Source: Antedon mediterranea (taxonomy: Eukaryota > Animalia > Echinodermata). Taken from it: a stretch of 64,000 nucleotides of DNA. Numbering within the stretch: position 1 is the stretch's first letter; each line of letters opens with the position of its first letter. Under the pieces are notes generated by a model. The model was not told the origin of the DNA. It was given only the letters and a program-made list of their open reading frames with translations, and made no database searches. Below are positions 25,161 to 28,100 of this stretch, in pieces. Both the position numbers and the translations under genes were made by a program. The stretch spans positions 26,120,871 to 26,184,870 of the forward strand of contig NC_092676.1 of NCBI RefSeq assembly GCF_964355755.1, read 5' to 3'.

Positions 25161-28100
25161 TTATGTGGCTCCAAATTCCAACATCCATTTTTCATATTTC
25201 TCTAAATCTTCCTTTCCTACTGATTTGGATACTTTTTTGATAGAAGATAAAAAGTCTTCGGCAGTAGACGGCAGGTTGAGCTCCTCTTTCGGTATCTGAC
25301 GGATCTCTTCCGGTCTAAGGCCTTGTATTCGTCGCCTCATGGCCATCATTGATGCATCCCTGATAAACAAAATGTTCAATGTTCATTAATTTATATTTAC
25401 ATTACATTTCGAGTCATCCTTTCACCATCATCCCCCATCCCCCTAAAGGTGCAATTTCTTTTTAGATCCCAATGTATGAATGTATTATTTAGCCTCAACT
25501 ACGCAAGTTCAGTCACGCTTCATCGCATTCGCTGTACACAATAATACGACATGAGGTGGTTATAAATTGGGTATAAAAGTCTAATTTTCTCGTAAAATCC
25601 CAAGTTTTGCAAGACGCAACATCAAGAAATGTTATTACCTATATACATAGAACCTACTGGTGAAATTTTATTAGGGTACGTTCTTATACCATGGCGAGGG
25701 TGATTTTTGACTGGACTATAGGGAGGATTAAGGTGGTGTGGAAAGGAACTGGCCACCCTACCACATAATGCATAGGCTTAAGTAAAATGAGCTCCTAACA
25801 GCTCATAACCCTACGTTCAGAATTGAATATCGGACCTTTACCCTTAGTATAAGGTTTTTTCACTGATGTCAGAAACTGACACCAGACTTTGGAGCAGCGT
25901 GTTTTTAATCTTTCAGAAGAGTAACTCAAACGTGTGATTTGATTAATAATGGTTCATTTAACTTGATTCTAGTTCATTTAGAGTGCAAACCACCACATAC
26001 CTGCAAACATTAGTGATGTCAGCGCCAGAGTAGCCTTCAAGATGCTGAGCAATGGCAGTTAGATCAACATCATCTGCTAGAGGCACCTCTTTCAGGTTGA
26101 TCCTCAGCAGCTGCTCCCGTCCTTCCACTTAAAGATCAATAAATAATGAAACTTAGCACATGGCTAGAATTTTAAACACAGCTCCGTCTAAACTATCAAA
26201 CATTGTGCGACAAAAAATGTGATGTGCCCATATATGGACATGATGATGTCATACCACTACCATACTTGGGCATATCACTTTTTTTGTCAAACTAGTTTGA
26301 TAGTTTGTCAATTTATATGTATAGTACATACTACAAGCAATTAAATACACACAATTAATGTTTGTATACTATAGTACTTTGCATCCATTAGTATACTTGT
26401 TGGATATATTGTTTAATTTAAACTCACATCCTGGTAAAGGAATATATATCCTTTTTTCGAGCCGTCTACGCAACGCCTCATCTATGTCCCACGGGAAGTT
26501 AGTAGCTGCTAGAACCATAACCATCTTAGTACTATCTGTGCCATCTCCAGTAGCTCCTTGAACACCTGTATTTTTCAAATTATTTAATAAATATTTATAA
26601 TAATTATTTAGGTAGGTACACACATACCATATAGTACTTTTTTTCATGCAATATGATGGTCTGTGTTTATGCATCTTAAGCCTTGCCTACACTATCAAAC
26701 TTTATGTGACAAAAATGTGATGTGCCCATATATGGACACAATGATGTCATATCACTACCATATTTGGGCACAGCACACATTTTTTTATCATAAACTAGTT
26801 TGATAGTGTAGACAGGGTTTTACGCTCTGCTGCTTTTAGAAGTTTAAAATTTTTTTTAAGTTGATAATACAAAGTTATTATTACCATCCATTTGTACTAG
26901 AAGTTCAGACTTGACTCGGCGACTTGCTTCATGTTCGTTACTGCCACCCCGCTTGCTACAGATTGAGTCAATTTCATCAATAAAAATTGTACTAGGAGCA
27001 TAAAATCTGGCCTACAAAACAAACAATAACCATCATATCTCAATAGTATTCAGTCAAATGTAAAACTCTATTTTAAAATATCCATAATCAAAGTCAATGC
27101 TCCTATTGTCTAAAAACTTAAAATTTATTCTTTATATTCAAGTTGGGTGTAGTTGCAATTCTGAACCCCTTACTGGTATCAAAGCCGGAAACATTCGGCT
27201 TATTGTAAAAAAAACTTAACATTTATTCTTTATATTCAAGTTGGATGAAGCCATTACTGGTTTGTATAATAGATATAAAGTTACTTACCCTGCCTCTAGG
27301 TCTATGTAATGTTTATAATAGCTGATATCAGATATAAAATATGTGAAGTAATACATCACTGTATACTTTTAAAAGACACTGCAAACGCACACCACTTACC
27401 ATTTCAAAGAGAATTCTCACAAGTTTTTCCGACTCTCCATGGTATTTGGACGTAAGAGAGGCCGAGCTGACATTAAAGAAAGTAGTGCCACACTCGGTAG
27501 CGACTGCTTTTGCTAGCAAAGTCTTACCGGTGCCAGGTGGACCGACCATCATAACGCCCTAATCGAAACCAACGAAAAATAAAACCCAAAATGCTAATAC
27601 GTATGAAATTTACGTACCATTTCAAATAGCAGACGAACCAATTTCTCGGACTCGCCACGCCATTTGGAGGTTAACGAGGAAGACGATACATTGAAGAAAG
27701 TCGTGCCACACTCGGTTGCGACCGCTTTTGCTAGAAGCGTTTTCCCTGTACCGGGTGGACCTACCATTAGTACGCCCTATTGTTGGAAACATAAACACAC
27801 TTCTTTATTGAATTTTCGGTTATAAATTTTAATTTTGACCGTAACCAGCATGCGGTGAGAAAAATATCCCATAATGCAAACATGCATTCATGCAAAATAA
27901 AGAATATTTTGTCTATGTATAAATTATAAATTAAAAACAAAATGCCAAGGTACCCAAATAAAATTTAAATTTAATTGACAAATTAAAAATTAGTAATACC
28001 AAAATAAAAATAGCAAATTAGTAGAAAAGAAATCCCAAACACCAACTAACAGTAAAACTTCTATTAAAGAGACACCTTCGGACCAAACACAGTGTGCCCT

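What the first reader, a model, noticed from the sequence alone, without database searches (positions are those of the whole stretch)
27400..27776. Tandem duplicated katanin exon: likely mutually exclusive splicing that swaps pore loop 1 (KWRG vs KYHG)
Seen: two intact 159-nt phase-0/0 exons with canonical AG/GT sites both encode the Walker A to pore-loop-1 segment. They differ at 5 of 53 residues (L3M, S33A, W39Y, R40H, L49I), while by my count 26 of the 48 same-residue codons differ synonymously. That pattern points to an old duplication with both copies under purifying selection. Established: in meiotic-clade AAA ATPases pore loop 1 (K-aromatic-X-G) grips the acidic tubulin C-terminal tail. 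C. elegans MEI-1 has KWRG, vertebrate KATNA1 has KYRG, and from memory sea urchin p60 has KYHG (needs checking). Inference: one gene makes two severing enzymes, or mixed hexamers, with different substrate-gripping chemistry. R to H removes a fixed positive charge and could make grip pH-sensitive or change preference for glutamylated/glycylated tubulin, i.e. a splice-level switch for reading the tubulin code. Including both exons would duplicate the P-loop and probably break the fold. I do not know of this being described.
Basis: partly seen in the sequence, partly recalled or inferred. Interest (0 to 1): 0.9.

Follow-up and report, generated by a model that had tools for sequence, protein, structure and literature searches.

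The report
Katanin splice switch swaps gripping residue
The gene for katanin, the enzyme that cuts microtubules, carries two copies of one exon and its transcripts use one or the other, putting arginine or histidine into the tubulin-gripping loop; the same pair occurs in echinoderms, acorn worms, molluscs, a lamp shell and a tube worm, so it likely gives these animals two differently tuned cutters from one gene.

Summary
Real. Two intact 159-nt exons (27776-27618, KWRG; 27558-27400, KYHG) lie 59 nt apart in a crinoid-like katanin p60 gene. One spliced-RNA run holds two 205-nt contigs, upstream>A>downstream and upstream>B>downstream, and none joining A to B; the flanks are only 20-23 nt. In all 32 species where I found two different versions of the exon (five phyla), one has Arg and the other His at this position; Trp/Tyr differs in only 16 of 32. 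So Arg/His is the conserved swap. Named vertebrate, amphioxus, tunicate, cnidarian and arthropod proteins showed no His form. The Arg aligns with C. elegans R267, described as invariant and salt-bridged to pore loop 2. The reference sea-urchin p60 (O61577) is the His form. RefSeq already lists both forms as automatic isoforms; ten literature searches found no description. Function is inferred, not tested: His likely gives a weaker, more condition-dependent grip. The scan had not noted this exon pair on other DNA, but noted a parallel pore-loop exon swap in YME1L.

The parts
27618..27776 (-). Alternative exon A: Walker A to pore loop 1, motif KWRG (Arg form)
   Evidence: Translation; RNA contig record 2, joint skips 606 nt with GT-AG ends; peptide identical to Antedon mediterranea isoform X1 exon
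27559..27617 (-). 59-nt spacer between the two exons (GT...AG); branch-point-like motifs 14 and 38 nt from the donor
   Evidence: no cover or A>B joint among the 3 RNA contigs laid
27400..27558 (-). Alternative exon B: same segment, motif KYHG (His form)
   Evidence: Translation; RNA contig record 3, joint skips 388 nt with GT-AG ends; peptide identical to Antedon mediterranea isoform X2 exon
28501..28606 (-). Shared upstream exon, spliced to either A or B
   Evidence: The 23-nt loose ends of both RNA contigs match its 3' end as read
26885..27011 (-). Shared downstream exon: Walker B and pore loop 2, including the Glu that corresponds to MEI-1 E308
   Evidence: tblastn; RNA contig record 1; numbering inferred
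25161..30858 (-). Coding span of the katanin p60 (KATNA1/KATNAL1-type) gene; outer exon borders approximate
   Evidence: tblastn of crinoid p60 proteins, 94-100% identity on most exons to Antedon X1; Pfam KATNA1_MIT on the first coding exon

Best explanation
An old tandem duplication of the Walker A to pore-loop-1 exon lets one katanin p60 gene make two subunits, with Arg or His next to the pore-loop aromatic residue, and the His form likely grips the acidic tubulin tail with less fixed positive charge and a weaker link to pore loop 2, so splicing likely tunes how strongly and under which conditions microtubules are cut. Shown: both exons are intact, each is spliced alone between the same flanking exons, and Arg/His is the one difference kept in every species pair found. 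Inferred: (i) joint inclusion is blocked sterically because the spacer is too short (both exons together would stay in frame, so nonsense-mediated decay cannot police it); (ii) the His form is an active enzyme; (iii) selection keeps the two residues apart; (iv) the pair dates to the protostome-deuterostome ancestor and the His exon was lost in chordates and arthropods. It dates at least to the echinoderm-hemichordate ancestor.
For: Splicing: two 205-nt contigs, exactly the length predicted for the two arms of an exon bubble at k=31; no A>B or skip-both joint among 3 contigs laid. Conservation: 32 of 32 species with two different exon versions show R versus H; 21 of 23 RefSeq pairs were compared directly and differ only inside the exon. 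Order Arg then His in the window, in 8 of 8 named invertebrate gene models holding both exons and in 2 unnamed read-through ORFs. In lophotrochozoans the two copies share lineage-specific substitutions (within-species distance 3.4 against 4.9-5.4 between species, column 40 left out) yet never share residue 40. Short spacer: 59 nt here, 40-61 nt in 7 unnamed read-through ORFs; branch-like motifs lie under the roughly 50-nt steric threshold given for vertebrates (PMC7969005, passages). Residue role: R40 aligns to MEI-1 R267; the R267-E308 salt bridge joins pore loops 1 and 2 and mutation there cuts ATPase and severing (bioRxiv 10.1101/2020.11.25.398420, passages citing Zehr 2020); the X-R-G motif makes the positive pore entrance (PMC8369831, passage). 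His form active: O61577 is KYHG, and sea-urchin p60 severs on its own (PMC8369831).
Against: No biochemical or tissue data. One RNA run from one study; its flanks (20 and 23 nt) are below the tool's 31-nt bridging standard, and contigs drop rare forms, so low-level co-inclusion is not excluded. Several lineages showed only one form among annotated proteins: His only in two sea cucumbers, four sacoglossan slugs and Dreissena; Arg only in Tubulanus and Haliotis asinina. If that is real loss, either form alone suffices. The 32 species are not independent. The exon tree does not resolve one origin. The spacer sample is biased to short, stop-free spacers (7 of 101 read-through ORFs). That O61577 is the clone assayed by Hartman 1998 is recalled, not checked. 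The preprint calls the salt bridge intra-protomer in one passage and inter-protomer in another.
Confidence: 0.65

Rival explanations
1. One form is simply a weaker subunit. It sets overall severing activity by mixing into hexamers with the other form, with no change in which tubulin tails are preferred.
For: Both forms occur in one RNA run with similar contig depth figures, 23.6 and 22.4 (one figure per contig, not an isoform ratio). Mutating R267 or E308 lowers ATPase and severing.
Against: His-only annotation in sea cucumbers and some molluscs and the His reference enzyme of sea urchin suggest that His rings work alone.
Confidence: 0.15
2. The two exons are functionally near-equivalent and are kept because each is needed in a different splicing context; Arg/His is a tolerated ancient marker.
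For: Some lineages show only one form. Most other differences are conservative and variable.
Against: Residue 40 differs in 32 of 32 pairs while neighbouring columns have been homogenised within lineages; no His among 85 named chordate, cnidarian and arthropod proteins (84 KYRG, 1 frameshifted).
Confidence: 0.12
3. On history only: the pair arose more than once (echinoderms plus hemichordates; one or more times in lophotrochozoans), each time followed by the same Arg-to-His change.
For: Lophotrochozoan copies group by species rather than by class. CGY to CAY is a single transition (genetic code). No His form was seen in chordates, arthropods or cnidarians.
Against: Same exon, same Arg-then-His order and short spacer in a crinoid, bivalves and an annelid; Ile49 goes with the His exon in 14 pairs and with the Arg exon in 1, in both echinoderms and molluscs. 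Gene conversion explains the within-species likeness equally well.
Confidence: 0.3

Closest known systems
Mutually exclusive exons from tandem exon duplication (class in PMC9741552, PMC8373072; abstracts seen in listings)
   Same: Homologous, equal-length, in-frame exons in tandem, used one at a time, ancient and conserved.
   Different: Katanin is not named in the main text of PMC9741552 or PMC4494069; vertebrate p60 proteins seen carry only the Arg form (36 of 36).
Steric exclusion as in OGDH exons 4a/4b (PMC7969005, passages)
   Same: Candidate branch points lie under about 50 nt from the upstream donor.
   Different: Here the whole spacer is only 40-61 nt; branch points are predicted, not mapped, and the threshold comes from vertebrate systems.
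Katanin p60 (KATNA1, KATNAL1, C. elegans MEI-1)
   Same: MIT, AAA, lid and Vps4_C domains; pore loop 1 K-aromatic-R-G in exon A.
   Different: Exon B puts His at the position that the literature calls invariant R267; the choice is made by splicing, not by paralogues.
RefSeq isoforms X1/X2 of echinoderm, hemichordate, mollusc and Lingula katanin p60
   Same: The same event, already present as automatic annotation (e.g. XP_071955922/XP_071955923; NP_999733/XP_011684099).
   Different: No description or interpretation found in the ten searches.

Membership tests
Katanin p60 (KATNA1/KATNAL1) | N-terminal KATNA1-type MIT domain | tested here: met
   Pfam PF21126, E 4e-25, on window 30676-30987
Katanin p60 (KATNA1/KATNAL1) | Single AAA domain with lid and Vps4_C, closest to p60 proteins | tested here: met
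   Window exons match Antedon p60 at 94-100% on most exons; that protein has AAA, AAA_lid_3 and Vps4_C
Katanin p60 (KATNA1/KATNAL1) | Pore loop 1 aromatic-Arg-Gly motif, exon A form | tested here: met
   KWRG, as in MEI-1
Katanin p60 (KATNA1/KATNAL1) | Pore loop 1 aromatic-Arg-Gly motif, exon B form | tested here: not met
   KYHG. The gene stays a katanin; the motif proves not to be universal, since O61577 has His too
Katanin p60 (KATNA1/KATNAL1) | ATP-dependent microtubule severing as a hexamer | not testable with these tools
   Needs biochemistry
Tandem-duplicated mutually exclusive exons | Homologous adjacent exons of equal length and phase | tested here: met
   159 nt each, phase 0/0, 48 of 53 residues identical
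Tandem-duplicated mutually exclusive exons | Each exon joined alone to the same flanking exons in RNA | tested here: met
   Two contigs, four junctions, with 20-23 nt flanks; RefSeq pairs in relatives
Tandem-duplicated mutually exclusive exons | Co-inclusion and double skipping absent or rare | tested here: inconclusive
   Not seen among 3 contigs of one run, but contigs drop rare forms; 8 named invertebrate gene models include both, which may be prediction error
Tandem-duplicated mutually exclusive exons | Both copies under purifying selection and conserved in relatives | tested here: met
   dN/dS about 0.08 between copies; both peptides kept in 32 species. Per-copy dN/dS not computed: no relatives' DNA
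Tandem-duplicated mutually exclusive exons | Tissue- or stage-regulated choice | not testable with these tools
   Only one RNA-like run was listed

The most novel reading that the evidence does not exclude
The bilaterian ancestor had a splice switch at katanin's substrate-gripping loop. The His form is a pH- and tubulin-code-sensitive severing enzyme, for example gated by the rise in cytoplasmic pH at fertilisation or sperm activation in marine invertebrates (the pH rise is recalled knowledge), while the Arg form grips constitutively. Chordates and arthropods kept only Arg, so the founding sea-urchin katanin is the atypical form and classic cross-species comparisons mix two kinds of enzyme.
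Probability: 0.15. Interest if true: 0.85.

Novelty: new member of a known kind. Interest (0 to 1): 0.63.

Why it matters
The swapped residue is one that structural work treats as invariant and essential for gripping tubulin. A His alternative kept beside Arg in five phyla is a natural experiment on how severing enzymes read tubulin tails. It is directly testable with two recombinant proteins from established models (sea urchin, sea star). It also means that sea-urchin katanin results may describe the His isoform, whereas worm and vertebrate structures describe Arg enzymes.

Tried and rejected
No whole genome was held for the window. No run on record as RNA was listed; X1 was a guess, and I treat it as RNA because its contigs skip introns at GT-AG borders and leave the introns uncovered. 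The first laying was swamped by a high-copy repeat, so its joint table showed nothing on these exons. AlphaFold2 on a both-exons gene model gave pLDDT about 30-49 over the ATPase core, but the single-exon control was also poor (pTM 0.36 in both; core about 39-67): inconclusive. A hairpin over the exon A donor scored z -2.5 in a 40-nt window chosen after seeing it, z -1.3 at 72 nt and z +0.7 at 101 nt: not relied on. The exon peptide tree without column 40 groups echinoderm and hemichordate Arg exons but resolves nothing deeper. Rejected: assembly artefact (copies 75% identical, both spliced); pseudo-exon (both intact and conserved); Trp/Tyr as the key switch (16 of 32); KATNA1/KATNAL1 as split descendants of the two exons (both KYRG). 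Rows left out of the 32: Myotis davidii (two identical Arg copies, likely an artefact), unnamed P0014 (repeat includes upstream-exon residues), Styela low-quality model, Babylonia paralogue P0322, unnamed P0003 and P0009, and all species with a single form. Primary papers PMC7060837, PMC6761829 and PMC7152510 were not held, so the residue roles come from secondary passages. No complex prediction was run.

Full report
Observation. On the minus strand, 27776-27618 and 27558-27400 each hold 159 nt between AG and GT and translate to the katanin Walker A to pore-loop-1 segment. They differ at 5 of 53 residues, and 26 of the 48 shared residues use different codons. Nucleotide identity is 74.8%, corrected dS 1.49 and dN 0.12. 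The longest identical run is 14 nt. The spacer between them is 59 nt. The rest of the gene is an ordinary p60 spanning about 30858-25161, with no second copy of any other exon in tblastn. Both exon peptides are identical to those of Antedon mediterranea isoforms X1 and X2, so the animal is likely a feather star close to Antedon.

RNA evidence. Five runs hold the region and none is on record as RNA. Laid on 26830-27940, run X1 gave 3 contigs. Two are 205 nt long. One joins exon A to the downstream exon (skips 606 nt), the other joins exon B to it (skips 388 nt), both with GT-AG ends. Both carry the same 23-nt loose end, which matches the end of the upstream exon as read. 205 nt is the length predicted for each arm of a two-exon bubble at k=31, given 5 shared leading and 9 shared trailing bases. 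No A>B joint, no skip-both joint and no intron cover appeared. Limits: one run from one study; flanks under the tool's 31-nt standard; contigs drop rare forms; the depths (23.6, 22.4) are not an isoform ratio. DNA-like run X4 spans the stretch unspliced, as do X2, X3 and X5; these are one sample, perhaps the assembly's source.

Distribution. The top hits to exon B were gene models holding both exons in tandem, in Tegillarca, Pinctada, Mytilus, Saccostrea, Mya and Lamellibrachia, always Arg first and His second. I then read the members of 30 protein clusters. Including the window, 32 species show two different versions of this exon: 11 echinoderms, 2 hemichordates, 1 brachiopod, 1 annelid and 17 molluscs. 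Of these, 23 are RefSeq isoform pairs (21 compared directly, and they differ only inside the exon; Pecten and Acanthaster were compared only to a relative) and 8 are both-exon models. In 32 of 32, one version has Arg and the other His at column 40. The next most frequent differences are column 39 (16 of 32) and column 49 (15 of 32). These species are related, so 32 is not a count of independent events. Named proteins from vertebrates (36), amphioxus (6), tunicates (7, one frameshifted), cnidarians (8) and arthropods (28) showed no His; these are annotated proteins, not genome scans. Against a universal pair: only His was seen in Holothuria, Apostichopus, three Elysia species, Plakobranchus and Dreissena, and only Arg in Tubulanus and Haliotis asinina.

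History. All 13 echinoderm and hemichordate pairs are WR versus YH and their Arg exons group together, which puts the duplication at or before their common ancestor. In lophotrochozoans the two copies of a species share lineage-specific changes and are closer to each other (3.4 differences, column 40 excluded) than to same-class exons of other species (4.9-5.4). Gene conversion that spares codon 40, or repeated duplication with the same change, could both explain that; either implies selection on the Arg/His difference (inference). The shared order, the short spacer and the Ile49 association (14 pairs to 1) favour one origin in the protostome-deuterostome ancestor, at roughly 70 to 30 in my judgement.

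How exclusivity is likely enforced. Both exons together stay in frame, so decay cannot remove such transcripts. The spacer has branch-point-like motifs 14 and 38 nt from the donor, under the roughly 50-nt steric threshold described for vertebrate exon pairs (PMC7969005, passages). Of 101 unnamed ORFs that read from this exon into an intron, 7 run from an Arg exon into a second copy after 40, 52, 52, 52, 54, 60 or 61 nt (one artefact-like row dropped). That sample is biased to short spacers. Steric exclusion is therefore inferred, not shown. A donor hairpin was too window-dependent to rely on.

What the swap likely does. Column 40 aligns to R267 of C. elegans MEI-1 (KWRG). A simulation preprint (10.1101/2020.11.25.398420, passages) calls R267 invariant and reports, citing Zehr 2020, an R267-E308 salt bridge between pore loops 1 and 2 whose mutation cuts ATPase and severing. 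A review (PMC8369831, passages) says the X-R-G motif makes the positive surface at the pore entrance. By residue count from Walker B, the E308 equivalent lies in the shared downstream exon and is present in 11 of 11 proteins checked (numbering). His would leave that Glu and the acidic tail facing a smaller, titratable side chain (established chemistry), so a weaker or pH-dependent grip is the expected result (inference). The His form is probably not a dead enzyme: UniProt O61577/NP_999733 of S. purpuratus is KYHG, the review states that sea-urchin p60 severs on its own, and I recall, unchecked, that O61577 is the clone of Hartman 1998. An AlphaFold2 test of co-inclusion was inconclusive because the control model was also poor.

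What is known. The class of tandem-duplicated exclusive exons is well known, and both katanin forms sit in RefSeq as automatic isoforms. Ten full-text searches listed no paper whose title or abstract opening describes this exon pair or a His pore loop; I saw most of those papers as listings only. Term searches found no katanin in the main texts of PMC9741552 and PMC4494069 or in the 6 held supplements of PMC5703972. Passages were read in PMC6279391, PMC8369831, PMC7969005, PMC12076492, PMC10136189, PMC11695996 and two preprints; a third preprint had none of the terms. Zehr 2017, Zehr 2020, Sandate 2019 and Hartman 1998 were not seen. Subscription papers, preprint supplements, the supplements of the exon catalogues and exon databases for sea urchin were not searched and could list the event. 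The scan's own notes hold nothing on this exon pair but one analogue, a pore-loop exon swap in YME1L of Owenia (e1-7275894), which I did not test.

Verdict. The feature is real, spliced and conserved across five phyla. It is a new member of a known kind, with an unusual target: a residue regarded as invariant in the substrate-gripping loop of a well-studied machine. My confidence is about 0.95 that the exons are used alternatively, about 0.65 that Arg/His tunes tail grip, and about 0.15 for the specific pH-gating story. Interest 0.63.

Noticed in passing
P0007 (Lamellibrachia satsuma gene model): Besides the pore-loop-1 exon, the following Walker B and pore-loop-2 segment also appears twice with a few differences; the Ridgeia, Capitella and Owenia models show it once. 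Possibly a second alternative exon or a model error.
   Followed up: partly
P0011 (Myotis davidii gene model): Two identical copies of the Arg exon peptide; likely an assembly or annotation artefact.
   Followed up: no
window about 26212-26270, 26678-26822, 28290-28435: A short, very high-copy repeat lies three times in katanin introns and drew tens of thousands of contigs; looks like a small non-autonomous transposon (my label).
   Followed up: no
window 16481-16768 (-): Exon of a bHLH gene (Pfam HLH; NPAS4-type bHLH just under cutoff); AHR-like by recall.
   Followed up: no
window about 37900-57950 (-): EH-domain gene upstream of katanin (Pfam EH at 57654-57953); REPS1/2-like by recall.
   Followed up: no
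P0012, P0397 (Mya, Mercenaria Arg exons): In these clams the Arg exon is the more diverged copy (8-10 differences, including E42V in Mya and R48C in Mercenaria), and Dreissena showed only the His form: possible decay or specialisation of the Arg exon.
   Followed up: no
window 14396-15282: Long low-complexity tandem repeat giving open frames on both strands.
   Followed up: no
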